Program-made: the position numbers and the translations under genes
Origin: a virus
Lineage: Duplodnaviria; Caudoviricetes
Virus record (IMG/VR): IMGVR_UViG_3300022876_000002
Reading direction: 5' to 3' (one strand)
DNA length: 64,000 bases
Shown: positions 3,601 to 57,379 of the stretch, in pieces
Numbering within the stretch: the stretch's first letter is position 1
Layout: every line of letters starts with the position of its first letter
The notes under the pieces: model-generated
Told to the model about the DNA's origin: nothing
The model's input: only the letters and a program-made list of their open reading frames with translations
Database searches by the model: none

Positions 3601-4248
3601 GCCGTGGGCGTTGTAGGCTGCTTTGTGGGCATCCAGTTTAGCCTTGATCTCGGTCTTGTATGCGTTGAGGTAGTTGGTGAACGTATTGAAGTAGTGCGAG
3701 ATTTTCGCCTCTACTACTGTACGCCCCTGGGTCTTGGCGATGGTGAGCACACCGTCTACCAGATCCACGAAGTCTTTGAAATACATGATATCGTAGATCA
3801 GGCTGTGGCCGTGCAGCTTAGGTTTAAACCACTCTGGCTTGTTACGGATCTGATCCCACGATACCTTGTCGATATCCTGACCAACCATCTCGGCGATCAT
3901 TTGCATCAGGGACTCATCGAACAGACTGAACTCCCCGACGATATCGTAATCAATGAACCCCGACAGGACTTCGGTATTCATTACTTCAATCATGCAAGTT
4001 ACCGACGTAGCGGTAAGCTCGGTCAGTGCTGGCATGATCTTGAAAATACGCCAGTCCTTACCAGGAATCAGTTCCTGGAGGTTGGCGTTGTACAGACGCA
4101 CACTCTTGGCGAATGCTGGTGCATGCCGCGGTACCAAGATACGGCTGTAGGTACTACGCTCTAAAGTGAACGGTTCCCCTCGTTTCTGGTTATCCGGGTT
4201 TACATGCAGCAGGTCTGTTTTGTATTCGGGAACTAAGGGGAAGTTCAT
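688..4248 (-). CDS. Large tail fibre / baseplate receptor-binding-type virion protein (phiKZ gp146/gp131-like family)
   Basis: 1186 aa; shared N-terminal anchor domain (L.PGKDW..F...YD.VG.F...W..I..KP..F.P..H.H), fibre motif HNAHGLNKGHIGLPLVDN, then a long beta-rich region. Confidence 0.7.
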   Translation of the reverse strand: MNFPLVPEYKTDLLHVNPDNQKRGEPFTLERSTYSRILVPRHAPAFAKSVRLYNANLQELIPGKDWRIFKIMPALTELTATSVTCMIEVMNTEVLSGFIDYDIVGEFSLFDESLMQMIAEMVGQDIDKVSWDQIRNKPEWFKPKLHGHSLIYDIMYFKDFVDLVDGVLTIAKTQGRTVVEAKISHYFNTFTNYLNAYKTEIKAKLDAHKAAYNAHGLNKGHIGLPLVDNFGTVRGQDALVKRSDKHLTPTGLKAIIRTQAADLDKLLPVNQLPISQFGNSNFIPPSIAGSFEGLGGISESAAICMETDGTIVMLENRMDGRVQGLYFSTITNPYVNPKRTYSAYQYEHQKFKAENSNPDRVVQGSGSEIIMVMDSLNGKFFLGLTNGTLDPGKHVYSLVDMSAVKAVFPEGSDNLLSWVGQMSIVSMGDWIYLFAASPYVNRTAPYPAGNNFRHCFRAPKATVQLTNPVAFTPVNLTYRDGDNVQVTNQPYWRWGTPVPVPGGTPDEYSKWYFTFVQTTGVRSTGSYRSQPSYACEIPTKPGKYQLRFASAWWANYTIPNLSQTFNCMIEMVYEIDPATNVMTLVRQTPKTAPVDFTAGDHELANSMFGLVFLDKEQGSVILEDGTLICSTAAYQSFPRGFIMYRAKAAKSRWAMMNRGWNLGMGELEQYIDQMEEIVSPLKSSVKPRSFLLGNKGDFFCAADPATLTFNRLYYRSSPGKLAPQANVTNLYLGNIYARPLSNDVREVRGPSTMGGATVTGPSASLAGITDAGLATFCFATQTRWQNGGTLPGQWPTTADLDDIKLMVDHTIRNEANLECTVVPNGTILYPKAIVDRFKNEVADPAGLAICPTVIVQVCDPTGGPLTTKFGWLPVFVVISWAKVGTTQRRTTLMSIAPTYSGGTDKTVTNYTVLDKIHYGEGIDNVAADLTPTKWDVALGGNQPNGTHGAMRVGYYVDGNTVHGYVDAGIQAAGIGDALVVKFLFKYTDRASKRWSATPGDVIGYIIGQSGGGNHQAVVPDGGVVQAYPHITTTGGAATIFESYNGNGINYLLGSVYPQSGWFLYFQTEIQAVFNGIPYTFPVGSVDLRTIDPSPGNKTFYIYAMVEDGKATYVIAQDQRLESPFQVWVAKVTTNATQIIEIERFNVFAINGNRVSEIKRGGAIPATSGLASKEGQLPWIRDNELIP

Positions 4249-4259
4249 TAGCGAGCACC

Positions 4260-5024
4260 TTAATTCAAATCGAGAGTGGAACCGTCGTATTTACGGAAGG
4301 CTTCTTTGAGTACTTCGATGGTAACCGCAATGGTAGGACTGTTGCCTGCCAGGTCGGAGATCTTCGCTGGCATCAGGTTACCTACGTCAGACAGACCCAG
4401 GTCGGTCTTGTTAGCCGGGTGCGCTTCTGGCAGACGCTTGTTCATGTGTTCTTCCAGCAACGACAGCACACTGGAGGAGTCCTGGGTGTTGGTAAGTACC
4501 ATGATCAGGCTCTTGAACGCAGTGTACATTTCCAGCCAGTCGTAGGTCTGAGTGATTGGCTGTTGGTGTGGGTCTGCCGGGAAGTCATCTGGTACGTTAA
4601 CCAGAGCACTCCAGTCTACCGAACGTGGGGTTACCAGGACGTCACCTACCACCTTAGCAAATGCGGTATCGTCCAGAATGAATGGACCACCAATGGTGTC
4701 ATAGGAAGCCAGCAGGGCTTCGTTAGGGTAGTCCTTGAGCAGTACGATAGCGCCAAATACGTTACGGCTGTATTTCAGGATGAAACGACTGAAGTCGTGT
4801 GCAAATACGTAGTCTTGGCCAGGTACCAATGCAGTCTGGCTACCTTGGCGGCGGAGTACAAATTTCTGGCCTTGGCCAGCCAAAGGAGCGTTGGGATAGA
4901 AAGGGCCGTAACGGGGTACAAACACCTTACGGGTGTTGTCCGAAGAGGTTTTAATTACTTCATCAGTGATTCGGCAATCGATGCGTTCCTGGAAGGGGTT
5001 CCAAGGGTAAGTAATAGCAGCCAT
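4260..5024 (-). CDS. Virion tail/baseplate protein (phiKZ gp145-like), anchor-domain paralog
   Basis: 254 aa; FVPRYGPFY...LVPGQDYVF...YDTIGGPF...VDWSALVNVPDDFPADPH and HPANKTDLGLSDVGN. Confidence 0.7.
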   Translation of the reverse strand: MAAITYPWNPFQERIDCRITDEVIKTSSDNTRKVFVPRYGPFYPNAPLAGQGQKFVLRRQGSQTALVPGQDYVFAHDFSRFILKYSRNVFGAIVLLKDYPNEALLASYDTIGGPFILDDTAFAKVVGDVLVTPRSVDWSALVNVPDDFPADPHQQPITQTYDWLEMYTAFKSLIMVLTNTQDSSSVLSLLEEHMNKRLPEAHPANKTDLGLSDVGNLMPAKISDLAGNSPTIAVTIEVLKEAFRKYDGSTLDLN

Positions 5025-5132
5025 TTACAGGTCTCCCAGGGCATTTTATAGTCTACCCTATTAATAAAAGGCCACCTATACGCAGTATAGGGGCGGTCTC
5101 AGGTCATATAATTCAGAGGAGTCAGCGCCTTT

Positions 5133-6374
5133 ATGTACACTTATCAAAGGGCGGTTGGCGTTAGCCGGCGAGCACCGCAAGGTGAGGAACTCGTCGATAT
5201 CAGCGCCATGGCGTGCAATAAATTATTTACTGAGTACAGTCGTTTAATCATTGTAGTTACGGACGGCCTGGCTAACAACCGTCAAGTGGCTATTGATCTC
5301 CAGAACTATTACGTGGAAATGGGTAGCTATTCCGGTAAGATCCAACAGTGGCTCACCAGCAAAGCTACTACGGTGTTGATCACTAGCAACGTACTGCCAG
5401 GCGACCGCTACCGGTTCGTGACTACCCACGACATCCAGTATCGTTGGTTCAGCCTCAAGCCCGGTAATGCTGACATGGGCGACGGACACCAAGACTCCTT
5501 GGACACTGTAGAGGCCCCGGATATCCGTGTAGTTAAAACGGATAACAGCGACGTAGATTTCGATGCACTGGTTAACCGTGGGTTGTTCACCATCAATGGT
5601 CACTTAGTGCGTGCAGTTAAAGGTAATCGTTGTGCCTACTTGCTGAACGCTGGTAAACACTTCAACGTGTATGATAACATCCACGTCAACTACCTTAACT
5701 TCAACACTGTGTCTACCCTGAAGACTTATCCGATCACCGAGACGGATATTGACTTCAAAGAGATCAACGGTATTCCTTTCTTGCATGTGAAGTCCCCAGT
5801 CAATATGTCTGGTAAGACTTGCTTGATGTCCATTGGCGGGCGACTGTATCTGAATGATGTGGCCATGCCCACTGGTGACACTACCTTTGCGATCAACATC
5901 AACAAGGTAGACTGGTTCTCTGCTATCTTCGACTCCAAGGAGTTGATCGACCTTAGTAGTGTCATCGCTAAGGAACGCATGGTAGTGGATAAAGGGTTCT
6001 TCCGTACCAAAGAGTTTTTCACTAAGCTGTTAACTGACAAATCGTCTTTCACTATTGTCCTGGATAACCCATATCTGGACATCAGTGTTAAGCCCATGGT
6101 CAATTACCTGTACCCATTCACCTACCATACCGAGGAAACCAAGCAGTTACCGATTTTGACTGGTAACGGTTTGTTGCCTAAGTATTTCACCAGAAGGATC
6201 ATCAACCGACGACTACTAGATATCGACATAGGAGTTCAAAAGTTATACGTAAACAAAACTACCGGTATCCAGAACGGAGGGGATCTTTACCACGGCTTTA
6301 AGAGCAAGTACGCCCCCAGCCGATTACACCCTGGTTACTTGTTATATATCCGTGCCATCATCCAAGGTACCTAA
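5133..6374 (+). CDS. Putative virion structural protein
   Basis: 413 aa with GAGGAG upstream; divergent from the tail genes and co-transcribed with the spanins; resembles conserved phiKZ-like structural proteins. Confidence 0.55.
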   Translation: MYTYQRAVGVSRRAPQGEELVDISAMACNKLFTEYSRLIIVVTDGLANNRQVAIDLQNYYVEMGSYSGKIQQWLTSKATTVLITSNVLPGDRYRFVTTHDIQYRWFSLKPGNADMGDGHQDSLDTVEAPDIRVVKTDNSDVDFDALVNRGLFTINGHLVRAVKGNRCAYLLNAGKHFNVYDNIHVNYLNFNTVSTLKTYPITETDIDFKEINGIPFLHVKSPVNMSGKTCLMSIGGRLYLNDVAMPTGDTTFAININKVDWFSAIFDSKELIDLSSVIAKERMVVDKGFFRTKEFFTKLLTDKSSFTIVLDNPYLDISVKPMVNYLYPFTYHTEETKQLPILTGNGLLPKYFTRRIINRRLLDIDIGVQKLYVNKTTGIQNGGDLYHGFKSKYAPSRLHPGYLLYIRAIIQGT

Positions 6375-7594: not shown

Positions 7595-8223
7595 GCATAG
7601 AACACTCCGTAGTCTTTAGCGATGATCTCACAACGGTACAGAGCAATAGCCGTGGCGTCTGACGAGTGCTCATCGATTACCTTGAGATCGAACCCTTCGG
7701 AGTCTAAGTGCTCGTATGCCATCACACCGTTGTGGACGTCTTCTTTCTCTGATTTCTTAGCCACTACACCTACCGTCTCTTTTGGAGGGATGGGTGTAAC
7801 GGTAGACACGTGGATACCACGCTCAATGAAAGGTGTTTGCAACATAGCCACAGCCTGGATTAGCTGCTTAAAGGTACCAGGGCTACGACCAAGGTAGTTA
7901 TCCTCGATAATAGCCGTGACGCACACCTTAACGAACTTACAAGCCTTGTCGATCCAATCGGTAAGGTAGGCGTCAATGATCCCACCCAGTGCACGAGCCA
8001 ACCCATAGCAGCGTGCCAATACCCCAGTACCATTAATAGTGTCGTCGTACTGTTCGGGGATGTCGTATAACACCCTGTCCCCTTTAATGGTATTTACGTA
8101 CACCAACTTGAAGGGCGTGCGCTTGGACAGATCGACGTCCATGACACACACCCCCATGTTGGTGGTAGAAGGGTCAATTGCAATGACCCTCAATACCTGG
8201 GGGACTGTTAAGTCCTTAACCAT
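7591..8223 (-). CDS. ruvC: RuvC-like Holliday junction resolvase
   Basis: IAIDPSTTNMGV (catalytic D), IIEDNY (E), KEDV, HSSDATAIAL (C-terminal D). Confidence 0.9.
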   Translation of the reverse strand: MVKDLTVPQVLRVIAIDPSTTNMGVCVMDVDLSKRTPFKLVYVNTIKGDRVLYDIPEQYDDTINGTGVLARCYGLARALGGIIDAYLTDWIDKACKFVKVCVTAIIEDNYLGRSPGTFKQLIQAVAMLQTPFIERGIHVSTVTPIPPKETVGVVAKKSEKEDVHNGVMAYEHLDSEGFDLKVIDEHSSDATAIALYRCEIIAKDYGVFYA

Positions 8224-41278: not shown

Positions 41279-42387
41279 TACATACCCCCGTTCAGCAGCT
41301 TGACGAGATCAGCGAAGCTGCTCGAGCCCATATCTTTTTTGCTCTTCAGCGCGATGTCCTTACGGGTGTAAACCTCAGGACGCGACTGACCGTGCGTGTA
41401 GAAAGTGAAAATGCCGCGGTCTTCGTTGCACACCACGATGGTGTTGGCTTTGACAGCCTTGAAGATTTCATTACGCGAGTTCGCATCGGAGAACCGGCGA
41501 CCAATGGACAGTTCCAGTTGGTTGGCAGTGTCCTGCGAGAAAATGAACGAGTTGGCCAACGAGTTAACCGAGATCACACCGGTACGCACGGCTTCCATAC
41601 GGTTGCCTGCTTCGTTTTTCATGGCCTCGCGGTAATACCCGGACATGTCCTCGTTCTTGATCTTGAAGCGCTCTTTGATAATGTCCTTACCAGAGAGCAG
41701 ATCAGGAATGGTGATTTCCTTGGTTTCTACCATGGTGAAGCGACCCCAGAAGGAATCGTCATTTTTGGCAGAGGAGAAAATACGAGTCAGGTCACTGGAG
41801 TTCACCGGTACCGGGATCTGACGGAAGGTCAGTGGGAACTCGATGTCCTTACCACTAGCGGTAGGCAGGGTAGCGATTACTGTACGACCAACAGCCAGCG
41901 GAGTGTACTCACTCAGGTCGGGCATGTTCTTACCGTTGACCGAGATAGTAGGAACGAAGTTTTTCTCTTCCTCTTCCTTCTGCTCTTTGGTCTTGATATT
42001 TTTGTCGTACGCTTCGATACCGGCCAATGCCATGAGACCAGCGCGCTTAGGGTTTACCGAACCGATGAGGTTGGAAACCTTGACGCCCATGGCTACCGAA
42101 GACTCCAGCGACAGGTGGGTCAGGGTAGCGACGATGTCGCGCAGGTTAACGATCTGGATGAGATCGTTCATGTATTCTTGGTGGATGCTAGCGGCCTCAA
42201 TTACCACCATAGGGGCGATAATTGCACGGTTTGCGCTCTCGTGTACCGAGCGCGTACTTACCACATTGTATGCTTGTCTGGCTTGACCAGTAGCCTCTAC
42301 TACGGCCCCGATATCTTTGTTGTCGGGGTAGATTCTGGAAGCCAGGCCCAGAAACATCGATCCCAGGTTCAACGCTGCGGAGATCAT
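41278..42387 (-). CDS. Inner-body protein (phiKZ gp89-like)
   Basis: 369 aa; AGIE|AYD site; synteny. Confidence 0.65.
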   Translation of the reverse strand: MISAALNLGSMFLGLASRIYPDNKDIGAVVEATGQARQAYNVVSTRSVHESANRAIIAPMVVIEAASIHQEYMNDLIQIVNLRDIVATLTHLSLESSVAMGVKVSNLIGSVNPKRAGLMALAGIEAYDKNIKTKEQKEEEEKNFVPTISVNGKNMPDLSEYTPLAVGRTVIATLPTASGKDIEFPLTFRQIPVPVNSSDLTRIFSSAKNDDSFWGRFTMVETKEITIPDLLSGKDIIKERFKIKNEDMSGYYREAMKNEAGNRMEAVRTGVISVNSLANSFIFSQDTANQLELSIGRRFSDANSRNEIFKAVKANTIVVCNEDRGIFTFYTHGQSRPEVYTRKDIALKSKKDMGSSSFADLVKLLNGGM

Positions 42388-53563: not shown

Positions 53564-54346
53564 TTAGCGAGCCGCTACCAGTGTGTTGAAATACATGGTA
53601 ACGTTTTGTTTACCGACTTCGCGGAGATCTGCAATCACGGTAGCGATATCAGTTTGCTGACGCAGCCGCGCGCGGTTGGTCCAGTTCACTGCGATCTTGG
53701 TGAGGAAGGTCACGTAATCGGTGTAACGGTTGATGGACTGCTGGGAGTAGTGTCCCTGCAGGTTTTTGAGGAAGCGCAGTGCTTCGCCGGAACGGAACAG
53801 TTCCTTGTTGTCCACAATCATGCGGATCAGGGCATCTGTAACGATCTTGAATTTCTCGAAGTCCAGGCTGGTGGACTCACCGACGGTTTCGATGAAGCTC
53901 ACTTGTTCCAGACGCTGTTCTTCGATACTGGCAAAGCCCACTTCACCTTTCAGGTGGCGCAGGTGCTTCTCGATGCGACGCAGCATGATGTTGGTAACAG
54001 CGCTGCCGCCATCTGCTACCATTTCAGGGCCAGGCACGACGTTCGGTACTTCGTCCAGGCTAGCTTCGCCCTTTTCCACTTCCAGGCTTACGTCAGGACC
54101 TGGTGCTGGCTCGGTGGGTTCGGTTGGATCTGGGGTAACTGGTTGTTCGGTCACTGGGCCTACCTCGTCGATTACTGGGGGAGTCCAGTCCGGTTCTGGT
54201 TCTGGTTCGGGCTCAACTGCGTCGATCGGAGCGATCGGTTCGTCTTTGAGGATTACATCACCTTCTTTTGGAGCTGCGGTTGCTGCTGCCACAGCAGTGG
54301 CCACTGCGGTAGTAGTAGCGGTAGGAGTCTTATCTTCCTTTGCCAT
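53564..54346 (-). CDS. Hypothetical protein with Pro/Glu/Thr-rich N-terminus
   Basis: 260 aa from ATG 54346 (GAGG upstream); EPEPEPEP low-complexity region. Confidence 0.7.
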   Translation of the reverse strand: MAKEDKTPTATTTAVATAVAAATAAPKEGDVILKDEPIAPIDAVEPEPEPEPDWTPPVIDEVGPVTEQPVTPDPTEPTEPAPGPDVSLEVEKGEASLDEVPNVVPGPEMVADGGSAVTNIMLRRIEKHLRHLKGEVGFASIEEQRLEQVSFIETVGESTSLDFEKFKIVTDALIRMIVDNKELFRSGEALRFLKNLQGHYSQQSINRYTDYVTFLTKIAVNWTNRARLRQQTDIATVIADLREVGKQNVTMYFNTLVAAR

Positions 54347-54397
54347 GTCACAAACCTCTATTTCGAAATAGAATAAGCTGTTGCTGATCAGCATAAA

Positions 54398-54429
54398 ATA
54401 CCCCCTAGCCCGTTAAGGCTAGAGGGTAT
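54398..54429 (-). terminator. Terminator-like hairpin
   Basis: ATACCC-C-CTAGCC / GGCTAG-A-GGGTAT. Confidence 0.55.
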
Positions 54430-54435
54430 TAAACA

Positions 54436-54903
54436 CTAACGGGGTTTTACTAATCGTGGATCAAAGCCAGCTTTACGGAGATCTTCCTGTTGCTCTTTCG
54501 GTAACCCTTGTCGCTGTTCTTCTGCTTTACGACGGGCTTCTTCAGCCTTATCGCGTTTGTTGAGGCCTTTACTAACAGCCTCTAGAAACTCATCCACTAC
54601 AGCAGACGGCATTTCCAGGTAGTCCTTAGGAGTCATTAACTCACCGAGTTTATGGTATCCGAAGTACTCACCTACCTGTTCCGTCGACCATGGGTGGAAG
54701 AAAGCGTTCTCAGCAGGGTTGTAGGCGATCGAGGAGTAAGGTGTACGTGTTTTAGGATCATAGCGCTCGAAGTTGATGTCTACCATCATTTTCTCATTGA
54801 GCAGCAAGGTCTCCGGTAGCATCTGTTTGACAGACTTACCCAACAGACTACGAGTGATACCTTCATGAACCGTATTAAACGTTACCTTACCCCCCGGTCC
54901 CAC
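54436..54903 (-). CDS. Putative second part of the tail-assembly chaperone (lambda T-like); -1 frame open back to the slippery site
   Basis: 155 aa; weak own RBS; DYLEMPSAVVDEFLEAV resembles the short helical motif that follows T4 gp26-type genes. Confidence 0.55.
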   Translation of the reverse strand: MGPGGKVTFNTVHEGITRSLLGKSVKQMLPETLLLNEKMMVDINFERYDPKTRTPYSSIAYNPAENAFFHPWSTEQVGEYFGYHKLGELMTPKDYLEMPSAVVDEFLEAVSKGLNKRDKAEEARRKAEEQRQGLPKEQQEDLRKAGFDPRLVKPR

Positions 54904-54908
54904 TTTAC

Positions 54909-56600
54909 CTATTCGGAGAGGGCTTCTGCCCGTACGTCGTGGTTTTCCGCGGCGCTCTGAATCATCAGCAACTGGATGTGGGTAAAAAAAGCCATGATCG
55001 GATCGATCGGGGTGTAGCCCAGCTTACGCAGCTTGATGTTGTCCGGATCTTCCAGATGACCTTGATTGGTCTTGCACTTCGGACAGTCGAAGTTCTGCAG
55101 GCCGACGAAGGTCTTCGACAGGAACGGAACCTTGTTGATGATATCTCGGGTCAGCGCACGGTTGAGCCATGGGCTGTCCTTGATAACCTCCAACAGACCA
55201 CCGTTGAAGTCGTTCATGTCTTTGGCATTCTGCCGATCCAGGATGTGGTCCTTGTCATCGGAGTCAGGTGCTGCCACAGCCACGAACTTCGAGATCCAGT
55301 GGATGTACTCAGTGGCACCCAGGTCGGTGTACAGCATATTGCGCTGGGTGTCGTACTCTTCCGGATCGATGATGCTGGTACGCAGTTCAGCCAGCTTAGG
55401 CGAGATCCGACCGGCGTAGTAGTCGAAGGTCATGAACGCATCGGCCAACGACGGCGAAGCCAGCTCCAGGTAAAGTGACTGGTCTTCGTTGTACACCTTG
55501 TTGGTGTCCAAGCCGAAGTGTGCTGCATTGATCAGCACCAGGGTTTCTTCGCTGGTGTAAGTGACCTTGTGGTTGAAGAGGTTAGCGTAGATCGCAGCCT
55601 CTTCATCCGTGGTGTGGTAGTCACGGTGGTGTACCAGGAGTTCAGGATCTACCAGTTGAAAGTCTTTCCAGTCACAACCAGGCTTGGAGCAGATCAGTTG
55701 CATGCCAACACCTTTGCTGGTGTAAGCGCGCAGCAGAGCCATGGTCAGTGCATCGATATCCGACCAACGAATGATCGAGGCCAGCTGACGGTAGTCACCG
55801 ATGTCGCTGATACTGGAATAGGTCAGACGCTCGGCAATGAAGTTCCAGATAACGCGAGCAGCAGCCACACGGGCCAGTACTACGCTATTGTTGTTCACTT
55901 GACGCACGTAGCCTTTGATCGACGCTTTGATGTCGTTGATCAGCTGACCCATGTCCATCTTGGACGGACGAGCCATTACCAGCTTGGTGAACGAGTTGCG
56001 CAGCTCGATGTCGAACATCAAGCGACCGTCTTCGGCCTTCAGGGAACGACGACGCATGATCTCAGAGTCTTTCAGACCCTTGCCACCGTTACCAGGCTTA
56101 CGACCGGAGATATCTGGAGTTACCAGACCGCCACGGTCGGAGACGTTGGAGATTCCGAGCTCACGGATCGCATTGGACCGGCTACGGACGTCGTCCAGGT
56201 ATTCGGTGTAGAACGCCACCATGCGCTGTGCTTTGTCTTCGGCTTCTTCCAGAGTCAGGTCTGGGTAGTTGTCTTCGACAAAGCGAGCCCAGTCTTGGTT
56301 CTGCTTTTCAGCAGCCAGGGCATAACGCTGTGGGTCTTCCTGCGCATAGCGCTCGACGGTAAGCTTCTGGATGTACGGAGACATCAGCTTAGCATCGTGG
56401 TCACGGCTTTCTTTACTGTTTCCAAGAAATACCGTGATGAAGCCCTGCGCCCGCTCGTCTTCAGTAAGCTGACGGATAAAGCTGTTCTTTGGCTCTACCC
56501 GGGTATTCATGGTGGTGTTGCCAGCCTCGTGCACCTGGCTATAGCTAGCCTTCGGGCGCTCTGGTACTGGTTGTCCTTCGTTCAGTTCGTCATTAGACAT
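54909..56600 (-). CDS. T4 gp26-like baseplate-hub / tail-assembly chaperone
   Basis: 563 aa; IELRNSFTKLVMARPSKMD...SDIDALTMALLRAYTSKGV...CSKPGC and C-terminal CPKC match the gp26 pattern as remembered. Confidence 0.55.
   Translation of the reverse strand: MSNDELNEGQPVPERPKASYSQVHEAGNTTMNTRVEPKNSFIRQLTEDERAQGFITVFLGNSKESRDHDAKLMSPYIQKLTVERYAQEDPQRYALAAEKQNQDWARFVEDNYPDLTLEEAEDKAQRMVAFYTEYLDDVRSRSNAIRELGISNVSDRGGLVTPDISGRKPGNGGKGLKDSEIMRRRSLKAEDGRLMFDIELRNSFTKLVMARPSKMDMGQLINDIKASIKGYVRQVNNNSVVLARVAAARVIWNFIAERLTYSSISDIGDYRQLASIIRWSDIDALTMALLRAYTSKGVGMQLICSKPGCDWKDFQLVDPELLVHHRDYHTTDEEAAIYANLFNHKVTYTSEETLVLINAAHFGLDTNKVYNEDQSLYLELASPSLADAFMTFDYYAGRISPKLAELRTSIIDPEEYDTQRNMLYTDLGATEYIHWISKFVAVAAPDSDDKDHILDRQNAKDMNDFNGGLLEVIKDSPWLNRALTRDIINKVPFLSKTFVGLQNFDCPKCKTNQGHLEDPDNIKLRKLGYTPIDPIMAFFTHIQLLMIQSAAENHDVRAEALSE
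54984..54990 (-). other. Candidate programmed -1 frameshift site T-TTT-TTT
   Basis: ATG GCT TTT TTT ACC; -1 frame has no stop through to the 155-aa ORF. Confidence 0.6.
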
Positions 56601-56611
56601 AAAACAAACCC

Positions 56612-57379
56612 TTAGTTGATATCTTTGATCACGCGAGGCTCGTCACCCATCGGGGTGAGTTCAGCCATGGAGATGTCACCAGCTTCGATGAACTCGGCGG
56701 GAAGGTCGTCTTCTTCATCGGCAGGCGACTCAGGTACTTCTACCTGGGCGATAGTACGATACAGGTGTTGAATACGGGCGATACGCTGGTCGTGCAACTC
56801 GAACGCGTAGTTCATGTCGGTAGTACCGGGTTCTTTGTGTTCTTTGGTGTACTCTTCGATCATTGCCTGGTTAGGCTTCAGTAGTTCTTCGAATACCGGA
56901 CGGGCGTGGAAGTGCATGCACTCGGTCACGTTGTCGAACAGGTGGACGTAGATCTCGACGAAGTCGTCCATGGTCTGGCCTTCATCCATCAGGATGCGGA
57001 TCGCAGTCATGTCTTCGGCGATTTGCACGATCAGACGGTCGAAGTTGTCTACCAGTTCCTGGATAGCTGGCGTGAACTCGATCTTGCCCTCGTTCTTGAG
57101 GATCTCGGCAACTTCCACAGCGGAGTGGATAGGTGCGAACATTTCCACGATGCCCAGGATCTGTTTAGTGACCTCCAGGTTATCCGGCAGTTTCTTGCCT
57201 TGCTTCTTGTCGACCAGAAGATCCTTGTACTTTCCGACGGTAGCCATGATACCCTTGCTGGCCAGTTCGAACTGGAGCTTGGAATTGGAAACCCGACGGA
57301 CTTCAGTCTTCTTGCCACCTTTACGCTTCTTAGCGCGTTGTTGACGTTTTGCTGCCATGGCTTGATTTTTAGTGCCCAT
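56612..57379 (-). CDS. Hypothetical protein with highly basic N-terminus and acidic C-terminus
   Basis: 255 aa; AAKRQQRAKKRKGGKKTEVRR; strong C-ending codon bias. Confidence 0.75.
   Translation of the reverse strand: MGTKNQAMAAKRQQRAKKRKGGKKTEVRRVSNSKLQFELASKGIMATVGKYKDLLVDKKQGKKLPDNLEVTKQILGIVEMFAPIHSAVEVAEILKNEGKIEFTPAIQELVDNFDRLIVQIAEDMTAIRILMDEGQTMDDFVEIYVHLFDNVTECMHFHARPVFEELLKPNQAMIEEYTKEHKEPGTTDMNYAFELHDQRIARIQHLYRTIAQVEVPESPADEEDDLPAEFIEAGDISMAELTPMGDEPRVIKDIN

What the first reader, a model, noticed from the sequence alone, without database searches (positions are those of the whole stretch)
54436..56600. Lambda G/GT-style programmed -1 frameshift joining a gp26-like chaperone to the next ORF
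Seen: 24 codons before its stop the 563-aa gene reads GCT TTT TTT ACC, an in-frame T-TTT-TTT heptamer (54984-54990). This gene otherwise mostly encodes Phe as TTC. The -1 frame opens after a TAA about 13 codons upstream and continues without a stop (YPHPVADDSERRGKPRRTGRSPLRIGKV-GPGGKVTF...) into the 155-aa ORF, which has only a weak RBS. Established: tail-assembly chaperones of many long-tailed phages use a -1 frameshift (lambda G/GT). Inferred: this locus makes a 563-aa chaperone plus a roughly 720-aa fusion. I do not recall this being described for phiKZ-like phages, where the two ORFs would be annotated separately.
Basis: partly seen in the sequence, partly recalled or inferred. Interest (0 to 1): 0.8.

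Follow-up and report, generated by a model that had tools for sequence, protein, structure and literature searches.

The report
Conserved frameshift in jumbo-phage assembly gene
A run of T's near the end of a jumbo-phage gene, conserved in every relative examined including the model phages phiKZ, EL, SPN3US and Goslar, very probably makes some ribosomes slip back one base, so one gene yields both a 563-residue protein and a 721-residue fusion with the next reading frame, which databases list as a separate small gene.

Summary

**The site.** The 563-aa gene lies on the minus strand (56600-54909). It carries an in-frame T_TTT_TTT at 54990-54984, 24 codons before its stop. From there the -1 frame stays open for 182 codons, to the end of the "155-aa ORF". 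The predicted fusion is 721 aa.

**Conservation in 82 orthologous loci** (33 clusters below 50% identity; includes phiKZ gp77/gp76.4, EL gp47/48, SPN3US and Goslar gp81/82):
- The homologous Phe-Phe is always TTT-TT[T/C/A].
- The preceding codon encodes 10 different amino acids but ends in T in 76 loci and G in 6.
- The -1 frame is always open, for 149-183 codons.
- Synonymous change is 45% in the gene body, 0% at the site and 23% across the overlap.
- The annotated "intergenic gap" evolves as coding sequence in the -1 frame, and several lineages have no start codon there.

**Limits.** I found no conserved RNA stimulator, and there is no direct evidence for the fusion product.

**Function.** The large protein has the fold of T4 gp26/gp51 hub-assembly proteins (PF12322, TM 0.76) but no sequence-level match. 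It does not sit between tail-tube and tape-measure genes. It therefore shares the G/GT logic but is not a member of that family.

**Novelty.** I found no paper describing this site. First readers of this scan noted the same site on another genome.

The parts
54909..56600 (-). 0-frame gene. It encodes a 563-aa protein with a T4 gp26/gp51-like fold and four invariant Cys (C304, C309, C506, C509). It is the ortholog of phiKZ gp77, EL gp47, Goslar gp81 and SPN3US ACQ60_gp227.
   Evidence: ORF and translation. PHROG 4585. Orthologs. AF2 model with pLDDT 85. Fold matches. Invariant Cys.
54984..54990 (-). Slippery heptamer T_TTT_TTT in the 0 frame (GCT TTT TTT ACC; F538-F539). This is the proposed site of tandem -1 slippage of two tRNA-Phe.
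   Evidence: Sequence. TTT-TT[T/C/A] is conserved in 82/82 orthologous loci, with the preceding base T in 76 and G in 6. No synonymous differences at the site, 0/26. U_UU.U_UU.Y is among the efficient -1 motifs in E. coli (PMC4066793).
54912..54983 (-). Dual-coding overlap. In the 0 frame it encodes the last 24 residues of the short form (part of the terminal helix 534-562, ending ...EALSE). In the -1 frame it encodes a Pro/Gly/Arg-rich linker (YPHP...SPLRI) that is predicted to be disordered.
   Evidence: Synonymous differences are 23% here against 45% in the gene body (Fisher p 5e-7). Helix. Linker pLDDT below 50. Alignment A2.
54436..54984 (-). -1-frame extension: 182 codons plus TAG. It forms the C-terminal part of the predicted 721-aa transframe protein. 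It contains the listed 155-aa GTG ORF (54903..54436), a conserved H-P-W-S motif and a charged helical tail.
   Evidence: PHROG 19747 matches only from residue 35 of the 155-aa ORF. tblastn conservation starts at residue 3-4, upstream of the annotated starts in EL and RisingSun. Substitutions in the post-stop segment are biased to the third position of this frame (193/139/281).

Best explanation
A programmed -1 ribosomal frameshift. Most ribosomes translating the 563-aa gene terminate at the TAG (54911-54909). They make the short form, whose last 24 residues complete a C-terminal helix.

A minority slip when the two Phe codons of GC-T_TTT_TTT-ACC occupy the P and A sites. Both tRNA-Phe re-pair one base back (UUU/UUU). 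The ribosome re-reads T54984 and continues in the -1 frame. The result is a 721-aa protein: residues 1-539 of the large protein, then a flexible linker of about 25 residues, then a mostly helical domain of about 155 residues that databases list as a separate small gene.

The arrangement is a fixed feature of the whole phiKZ-like (Chimalliviridae) gene family.

**Shown:**
- the site itself;
- its register and the open -1 frame in all 82 orthologous loci;
- coding-type evolution of the -1 frame from the site onward;
- the gp26/gp51-like fold of the large protein.

**Inferred:**
- that slippage is ribosomal;
- that it is low-efficiency, so that a set ratio of short to long form is made;
- that the protein is a non-virion assembly factor of the baseplate hub. 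The extension would add a second binding function, by analogy with lambda gpG/gpGT.
For: **1. Site and frames in the window**.

**2. Conservation across 82 loci** (65 non-redundant at 90% identity, 33 clusters at 50%), down to about 20% amino-acid identity, including phiKZ, SPN3US, phiEaH2, Goslar, EL and RisingSun.
- 82/82 have in-frame TTT-TT[T/C/A] at the homologous F-F, 11-27 codons before the stop.
- 82/82 have the -1 frame open for 149-183 codons.
- The preceding codon encodes 10 different amino acids, yet its third base is T in 76 loci and G in 6, never A or C.
- Kosakonia phage Kc263 has changed F-F to F-L but keeps T_TTT_TTA.

**3. Codon usage.** Phe elsewhere in these genes is 402 TTT against 981 TTC, and 0 of 8-25 in several lineages. 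The first slip codon is TTT in 82/82.

**4. Synonymous differences between orthologs.**

| Region | Synonymous differences |
|---|---|
| Gene body | 45% |
| 25 codons before the site | 48% |
| The site | 0/26 |
| Site to stop | 23% (p 5e-7) |

The constraint starts exactly at the heptamer.

**5. The post-stop "gap".**
- It shows third-position-biased substitution in the -1 frame and aligned amino-acid conservation (A2).
- tblastn of the 155-aa ORF matches EL and RisingSun 30-40 codons upstream of their annotated ATGs.
- L020, L023, L027 (EL), L028 (RisingSun) and L037 have no ATG/GTG/TTG before extension codon 55-67.

**6. No in-frame fusion.** No natural in-frame fusion exists among 33 database homologs, which are all 535-589 aa. 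The two-frame layout is therefore maintained.

**7. The motif works.** U_UU.U_UU.Y belongs to the most efficient class of -1 heptamers in E. coli and is used by IS elements (PMC4066793).

**8. Fold.**
- Residues 177-545 match an ESM Atlas cluster that is 84% PF12322 T4_baseplate (TM 0.76, 256 aligned, rmsd 3.8).
- BFVD returns many "baseplate hub / hub assembly" proteins at E 2e-4 to 7e-2.
- T4 gp26 shares the CxC...CPxC layout.
- T4 gp26 is listed as a hub assembly chaperone (PMC3004832).
Against: - There is no direct evidence for the transframe protein: no peptide, reporter or ribosome-profiling data.
- No conserved downstream RNA structure was found. RNAalifold gave 0 pairs on 13 orthologs, and single-sequence z-scores ranged from -1.4 to +0.7. 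No upstream SD-like element is visible. Efficiency and any stimulator are therefore unknown.
- A T6-T7 run could also support RNA-polymerase slippage.
- Six loci have G_TTT_TTY, an imperfect heptamer for P-site re-pairing.
- The functional assignment rests on fold similarity alone. The Pfam PF12322 HMM does not hit, and hhalign to T4 gp26 aligns only the CPxC motif.
- The genomic neighbours are RNA polymerase, helicase and DNA polymerase genes and unknowns, not tail genes.
- The extension has no recognisable family, and its model is poor (pLDDT 61).
Confidence: 0.8

Rival explanations
1. Transcriptional slippage. The phage RNA polymerase stutters on the T6-T7 run and adds one U (or drops two) in a fraction of transcripts. 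Standard translation of those mRNAs then makes the same 721-aa fusion.
For: 54 of 82 loci have a run of at least seven T (T_TTT_TTT), and homopolymer runs are known slippage sites. Sharma et al. note that UUUUUUU is depleted in E. coli genes in all frames, possibly for this reason (PMC4066793). No ribosomal stimulator structure was found.
Against: 27 loci have only T6 followed by C, and one (L060, G_TTT_TTC) has only T5. Those runs are short for polymerase slippage but fine for tandem tRNA-Phe re-pairing. The variable last base is T, C or A, which are the bases compatible with A-site re-pairing. Contigs from four RNA libraries carry T7 with no indel. These are consensus contigs and may include DNA, so this only excludes majority slippage.
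Confidence: 0.08
2. No recoding. The small ORF is translated on its own from non-canonical or internal starts. The T-run is conserved for another reason, such as the F-F residues plus a nucleic-acid signal (for example a pause or promoter element for the phage polymerase).
For: The window has a GTG right after the stop. Every database annotates two genes. Conserved Met residues exist further in (D-x-N-M-G-Y-Y) and are used as annotated starts. A 5-bp hairpin plus T-run was flagged as terminator-like at 55008-54996.
Against: - The hairpin is not present in the EL or RisingSun sequences.
- This reading does not explain the -1 frame being open across the overlap in 82/82 loci.
- It does not explain the preceding third base being T or G in 82/82 across 10 amino acids.
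- It does not explain TTT being used in genes with 0% TTT elsewhere.
- It does not explain synonymous suppression over the whole overlap, or amino-acid conservation and codon-periodic substitution upstream of any start codon.
- Five lineages have no start before extension codon 55-67.
Confidence: 0.05
3. A rival on function only. The frameshift is real, but the protein is not a baseplate-hub assembly chaperone. It uses the gp26/gp51-like zinc-binding fold for another job, for example in replication, transcription or phage-nucleus biology as its neighbours might suggest, or as a minor virion component.
For: The neighbours are RNA polymerase beta-like subunits, helicase, DNA polymerase and head proteins. 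There is no sequence-level match to PF12322. An N-terminal region of about 175 residues and the extension lie outside the gp26-like match. One GenBank record calls it ZipA-like and another calls it a baseplate protein.
Against: The fold match to PF12322 clusters is specific and covers a whole hit (TM 0.76 by the hit). Unrelated clusters score 0.31 or less. Structural genes are scattered in phiKZ-like genomes, so context is weak evidence. The Goslar homologs gp81/gp82 are not mentioned among the 28 modelled virion proteins or the highlighted mass-spectrometry hits. That fits a non-virion assembly factor such as T4 gp26/gp51.
Confidence: 0.35

Closest known systems
Lambda gpG/gpGT and the conserved tail-assembly-chaperone frameshift of long-tailed phages (Levin 1993; Xu, Hendrix & Duda 2004; summarised in PMC5009743)
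   Same: A -1 slip on a heptamer a few tens of codons before the stop of a morphogenesis-factor gene. The result is a short product plus a C-terminally extended fusion with the next ORF. The frameshift is conserved while the sequences diverge. Often no strong RNA stimulator is present. The products are probably absent from virions.
   Different: - The protein family differs: a gp26/gp51-like fold of about 560 aa, not a TAC of about 100-150 aa.
- The locus is not between the tail-tube and tape-measure genes.
- The slippery sequence is U_UUU_UUY, not G_GGA_AAG.
- The binding partners are unknown.
T4 gp26 / gp51 baseplate hub assembly proteins (Pfam PF12322 T4_baseplate)
   Same: The fold is shared over residues 177-545. 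Both have two Cys pairs far apart in sequence, the second as CPxC near the C-terminus, followed by a short helix containing F-F. T4 gene 26 also yields two isoforms, gp26 and an internally initiated 26'.
   Different: - There is no detectable sequence homology.
- The jumbo-phage protein is about 2.7 times longer.
- T4 has TTC TTT at its F-F, and gene 25 follows with an overlapping ATG, so T4 has no frameshift.
- The T4 isoforms share the C-terminus, whereas these share the N-terminus.
IS-element orfAB transposase frameshifts that use U_UUU_UUC (PMC4066793)
   Same: The same heptamer class is used in bacteria to make a fusion protein at a set low ratio.
   Different: IS sites usually have a downstream hairpin or pseudoknot, or an upstream SD. 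None was found here. The biology is unrelated.
HIV-1 gag-pol U_UUU_UUA site
   Same: The slippery sequence is identical to that of the Kosakonia phage Kc263 ortholog (T_TTT_TTA), with tandem Phe/Leu tRNA slippage.
   Different: It is a eukaryotic ribosome system with a defined downstream stem-loop.

Membership tests
Heptamer-type programmed -1 ribosomal frameshift site | X_XXY_YYZ heptamer in the 0-frame register that allows both tRNAs to re-pair in the -1 frame | tested here: met
   T_TTT_TTT at 54990-54984. 76/82 orthologs have T_TTT_TT[T/C/A], and 6/82 have G_TTT_TTY.
Heptamer-type programmed -1 ribosomal frameshift site | The -1 frame is open from the site and encodes a substantial, conserved extension | tested here: met
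   182 codons in the window and 149-183 codons in 82/82 orthologs. Extension alignment A2.
Heptamer-type programmed -1 ribosomal frameshift site | Purifying selection on the overlap, seen as reduced synonymous change that begins at the site | tested here: met
   45% in the gene body, 48% just upstream, 0/26 at the site and 23% from site to stop; p 5e-7.
Heptamer-type programmed -1 ribosomal frameshift site | A stimulatory element: a 3' hairpin or pseudoknot, or a 5' SD-like sequence (common but not obligatory) | tested here: not met
   RNAalifold found 0 conserved pairs. MFE z-scores were -1.4 to +0.7 in 9 orthologs. No SD-like motif is visible upstream.
Heptamer-type programmed -1 ribosomal frameshift site | The transframe protein is observed | not testable with these tools
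   No proteomic or ribosome-profiling data were accessible. RNA-library contigs only show T7 at consensus level.
Lambda G/GT-type tail assembly chaperone | The gene pair lies between the major tail tube gene and the tape-measure gene | tested here: not met
   The neighbours are RNA polymerase beta-like subunits, helicase, DNA polymerase, head proteins and unknowns, in the window and in EL, RisingSun, phiKZ and SPN3US.
Lambda G/GT-type tail assembly chaperone | Sequence or profile membership in a TAC family | tested here: not met
   No Pfam family for either part. The PHROGs hits (4585, 19747) have unknown function.
Lambda G/GT-type tail assembly chaperone | A -1 frameshift near the 3' end that gives a short and a long form sharing the N-terminus | tested here: met
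   See the frameshift rows above. This rests on comparative evidence only.
T4 gp26/gp51 hub assembly proteins (PF12322 T4_baseplate) | A match to the Pfam HMM above the gathering score | tested here: not met
   No hit at E<=1 for 20 family members. No hit at E<=10 in five genomes, while T4 gp26 and gp51 scored 215 and 178 bits as positive controls.
T4 gp26/gp51 hub assembly proteins (PF12322 T4_baseplate) | Shared three-dimensional fold | tested here: met
   An ESM Atlas cluster that is 84% PF12322: TM 0.76 by the hit, 256 residues aligned, rmsd 3.8, query residues 177-545. More than 15 BFVD "baseplate hub" proteins at probability 0.8-1.0. Both sides of these comparisons are predicted models.
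T4 gp26/gp51 hub assembly proteins (PF12322 T4_baseplate) | Required for hub assembly but absent from the virion | not testable with these tools
   The only evidence is indirect. Goslar gp81/gp82 are not named in the virion structure and mass-spectrometry paper. phiKZ gp77 is not flagged as structural in its record, although gp79-81 are.

The most novel reading that the evidence does not exclude
Every nucleus-forming jumbo phage (Chimalliviridae) would encode a so far unrecognised protein of about 700-720 residues, made only by recoding. It would be a long isoform of a gp26/gp51-like hub-assembly factor, whose ratio to the short isoform is set by a stimulator-less U_UUU_UUY slip. The slip might be tuned by the invariant nascent peptide (P-[IL]-D-x4-F-F) in the exit tunnel.

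This would extend the lambda G/GT "two isoforms at a fixed ratio" principle from tape-measure chaperones to T4-type hub chaperones. T4 would meet the same need with its internal-start isoform gp26'.
Probability: 0.3. Interest if true: 0.8.

Novelty: new variant of a known kind. Interest (0 to 1): 0.7.

Why it matters
phiKZ, EL, SPN3US and Goslar are the main models for nucleus-forming jumbo phages and are candidates for phage therapy. Their genomes are annotated with two separate genes here, and the small one is given arbitrary starts that leave a 90-220 nt "gap".

If the frameshift is real, three things follow:
- A conserved, probably essential protein of about 720 aa is missing from every proteome database, core-gene list and structural or MS search database for this family.
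- The frameshifted-chaperone principle, known for tube/tape-measure chaperones, also applies to a gp26/gp51-like hub-assembly fold.
- The site offers a simple, stimulator-less U_UUU_UUY system for studying frameshifting in Pseudomonas, Erwinia, Vibrio and E. coli hosts.

It is directly testable with a tagged construct and two synonymous mutations.

Tried and rejected
- **Megablast to GenBank phages:** no match. The window is IMG/VR contig UViG_3300026445_000027.
- **Pfam on both parts, and on all members of A2 and A3:** nothing significant.
- **PDB by sequence profile, Foldseek and VIA-align wide:** no meaningful match. AFDB Swiss-Prot gave nothing.
- **hhalign of the family against T4 gp26:** only the CPxC motif aligned, at probability 5%.
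hhalign of A2 against T4 gp51 gave probability 0.1%. Rejected.
- **ESM Atlas feature search of the extension:** no usable hit. The AF2 model of the extension is poor (pLDDT 61), and its BFVD hits are only the annotated small ORFs of other jumbo phages.
- **Conserved RNA stimulator:** none found.
- **Hairpin plus T-run flagged as terminator-like at 55008-54996:** it arises from the P-I-D-P-I codons and is not conserved in EL or RisingSun. Rejected as a signal.
- **Second in-frame T_TTT_TTG at 41335-41341 with a long -1 ORF:** it lies on the antisense strand of ATG-initiated minus-strand genes. Rejected as spurious.
- **RNA evidence:**
  - The window's own stretch is present in 16 soil metatranscriptome runs, but only as consensus contigs with T7. 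That is uninformative about minor slippage.
- **Search for a natural in-frame fusion ortholog:** none among 33 homologs of 535-589 aa.
- **Literature searches for a prior description**: none found. Only open-access papers and bioRxiv were searched.
Full report
**1. What is in the sequence**

The finding's genes are on the minus strand. There is a 563-aa ATG ORF at 56600..54909 and, six bases after its TAG, a 155-aa GTG ORF at 54903..54436.

- The minus strand reads ATC ATG GCT TTT TTT ACC. This is a T_TTT_TTT heptamer in X_XXY_YYZ register at 54990-54984 (Phe538-Phe539), 24 codons before the stop.
- After a -1 slip the next codon is TAC. The frame then runs for 182 codons (YPHPVADDSER...) to the stop of the small ORF, giving a 539 + 182 = 721-aa product.
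- The -1 frame opens 13 codons upstream of the heptamer.
- Elsewhere the gene uses 2 TTT and 16 TTC for Phe.
- As a background check, the 64-kb window has 98 stop-to-stop ORFs of at least 150 aa and only three in-frame TTTTTTN heptamers. The only other one with a long -1 continuation lies antisense to real genes.

**2. Comparative test**

The window is identical to IMG/VR contig UViG_3300026445_000027.

tblastn and two IMG/VR scans recovered orthologous gene pairs. HMM searches of named genomes recovered more. They come from:
- EL (gp47/gp48) and RisingSun (gp53/gp54);
- FishSpeaker and Miami-like Klebsiella phages;
- Gorgonvirinae vibriophages;
- Aeromonas, Kosakonia and Shewanella jumbo phages;
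- phiKZ (gp77 / gp76.4), SPN3US, phiEaH2 and Goslar (gp81/gp82);
- many uncultivated contigs.

The set has 82 loci, 65 non-redundant at 90% identity and 33 clusters at 50%. The results are uniform:
- All 82 have in-frame TTT-TT[T/C/A] at the homologous Phe-Phe, 11-27 codons before the stop.
- All 82 have the -1 frame open for 149-183 codons, to the end of the small ORF.
- The codon before the slip codons encodes ten different amino acids. Its third base is T in 76 loci and G in 6, never A or C.
- Kc263 has Phe-Leu instead of Phe-Phe but keeps T_TTT_TTA, the HIV-1 heptamer.
- Across these genes Phe is otherwise 402 TTT to 981 TTC. Several lineages use no TTT at all elsewhere (0/14, 0/21, 0/25), yet they have TTT at the site.

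**3. Is the -1 frame translated from the site?**

- Between ten ortholog pairs, codons with identical amino acids differ synonymously in 45% of cases in the gene body and 48% in the 25 codons before the site. The figures are 0 of 26 at the site and 23% from the site to the stop (Fisher p 5e-7). An extra constraint therefore begins exactly at the heptamer.
- The stretch after the 0-frame stop is annotated as non-coding in EL, RisingSun, Goslar and phiKZ, with gaps of about 90-220 nt. Its substitutions are biased to the third position of the -1 frame (193/139/281), and it aligns at the amino-acid level (A2).
- tblastn of the 155-aa ORF matches from residue 3-4. That is 30-40 codons upstream of the annotated ATGs.
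- In five lineages, including EL and RisingSun, there is no ATG, GTG or TTG in that frame before extension codon 55-67. Independent initiation cannot account for the conserved N-terminal part there.
- None of 33 database homologs (535-589 aa) is an in-frame fusion. The two-frame arrangement is itself maintained.

**4. Mechanism**

U_UU.U_UU.Y falls in the class of most efficient -1 heptamers measured in E. coli (H_HH.U_UU.Y). It frameshifts above background without stimulators and is used by IS elements (PMC4066793).

- I found no conserved stimulator. RNAalifold on 13 orthologs predicts no pairs, and nine single sequences fold no better than shuffles. A hairpin next to the T-run in the window is not conserved.
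- The likely picture is therefore a modest, unstimulated slip, as in many phage tail-chaperone sites. That is inference.
- Polymerase slippage on the T-run is the main mechanistic rival. Against it:
  - 27 loci have only T6 followed by C.
  - One locus has T5 (G_TTT_TTC).
  - The last base is restricted to those compatible with A-site re-pairing.
- Contigs from four RNA libraries carry T7. This excludes only majority editing.

**5. What the proteins are**

*The large protein.*
- Sequence searches give only PHROGs of unknown function, with no Pfam and no PDB relative.
- An AF2 model is confident (pLDDT 85, pTM 0.84).
- It has no PDB match.
- In BFVD it matches jumbo-phage homologs, followed by many T4-like "baseplate hub / hub assembly" proteins.
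- In the ESM Atlas, residues 177-545 superpose on a cluster that is 84% PF12322 T4_baseplate (TM 0.76 by the hit).
- PF12322 covers both T4 gp26 and gp51, and T4 gp26 is listed as a hub assembly chaperone (PMC3004832).
- The four invariant Cys (C304, C309, C506, C509) mirror the CxC...CPxC of T4 gp26.
- Sequence-level membership fails, however.
- The locus lies among polymerase and helicase genes, not tail genes.

*The two isoforms.*
- The slip site sits at the start of the last helix (534-562).
- The short form therefore ends in that helix.
- The long form replaces it with a linker predicted to be disordered (pLDDT below 50 over residues 1-25 of the extension) and a helical domain of about 155 aa with an invariant His in an H-P-W-S motif.
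- The extension has no recognisable relatives, and the suggested gp51 likeness was tested and rejected.

*Virion status.*
- The Goslar homologs gp81/gp82 are not named in the Goslar virion structure and MS paper or its held supplements.
- That is compatible with a non-virion assembly factor.

**6. Comparison and novelty**

In logic this is lambda G/GT: a short form plus a rare, C-terminally extended form of an assembly factor (PMC5009743). It is not a member of that family by context or by sequence. It resembles T4 gp26/gp51 in fold only. T4 itself has no slippery site (TTC TTT), although gene 26 also makes two isoforms by internal initiation.

Nine literature searches gave no description of this frameshift. 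Look-ups in the Chimalliviridae core-genome paper, a 2025 review, the Goslar structure preprint and the 2016 recoding review also found none. Subscription-only literature was not searchable.

First readers of this scan flagged the same site on another genome (e1-5380670, e1-5380676). Those notes are untested and are not independent evidence.

**7. Verdict**

- The -1 frameshift interpretation is strongly supported by comparative genomics (about 0.8 for ribosomal -1 PRF and about 0.9 for recoding of some kind).
- The hub-chaperone function is plausible but inferred from fold alone.
- The finding is a new variant of a known kind of recoding, conserved across a major phage family and unannotated in its model members.

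Noticed in passing
L049 (phiKZ NC_004629) 71442-73504; L001 (EL) 7653-7749; L002 (RisingSun) 7620-7725; L051 (Goslar) 5496-5589: GenBank annotations of the small ORF start at different, non-homologous internal ATGs. This applies to phiKZ gp76.4, EL gp48, RisingSun gp54 and Goslar gp82. The starts leave apparent intergenic gaps of 90-220 nt that are in fact conserved coding sequence in the -1 frame.
   Followed up: yes
L039 (T4 NC_000866) 3803-5229: Pfam PF12322 (T4_baseplate) matches both T4 gp26 (215 bits) and gp51 (178 bits). The two divergently transcribed hub-assembly genes are therefore paralogs. Gene 26 also carries an annotated internal-start isoform, 26'.
   Followed up: partly
L053 (Yersinia phage phiR1-37 NC_016163) about 2100-2400: This non-chimallivirus jumbo phage has a 479-aa ORF with a weak PF12322 hit (E 0.007). 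It ends ...ILFTASIGELMGE with codons CTT TTT ACC, which contain only a T_TTT tetramer. Its -1 frame is also open into a small downstream ORF rich in K and E. It may be a weaker or ancestral version of the same recoding.
   Followed up: no
L056-L060 and L087 (IMG/VR; L056 is a 309,208-bp contig): A clade related to phiKZ has G_TTT_TTY instead of T_TTT_TTY at the site. The P-site tRNA would re-pair with a first-position mismatch. The -1 frame and the extension are still conserved.
   Followed up: partly
window 54300-56700 (runs X1-X20): This phage's sequence is present at 100% identity in at least 16 soil metatranscriptome libraries from about 20 studies. Contigs reach 136 kb at word depth 55-250. 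Either the phage is highly active in those soils, or phage DNA is carried over into the RNA libraries.
   Followed up: no
window 54395-54426, minus strand: Read by eye: a 10-bp stem (CCCTCTAGCC / GGCTAGGGGG) followed by TATTTT lies directly after the small ORF's stop and just before the next gene's ATG (54394). The consensus terminator scan did not list it.
   Followed up: no
window 56612-57379 and 53564-54394, minus strand: The genes flanking the pair in the same orientation (255 aa, PHROG 28183; 276 aa, PHROG 14374; then 361 aa, PHROG 21850) are syntenic in EL, RisingSun and the vibriophages and have unknown function. They may belong to the same assembly module.
   Followed up: no
window 54996-55020, minus strand (residues about 528-536): The peptide just upstream of the slip site (G-Y-T-P-I-D-P-I-M, consensus P-[IL]-D-x4-F-F across the whole family) is nearly invariant. 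It would lie in the ribosomal exit tunnel during the slip. A role as a nascent-peptide stimulator is speculation only.
   Followed up: no
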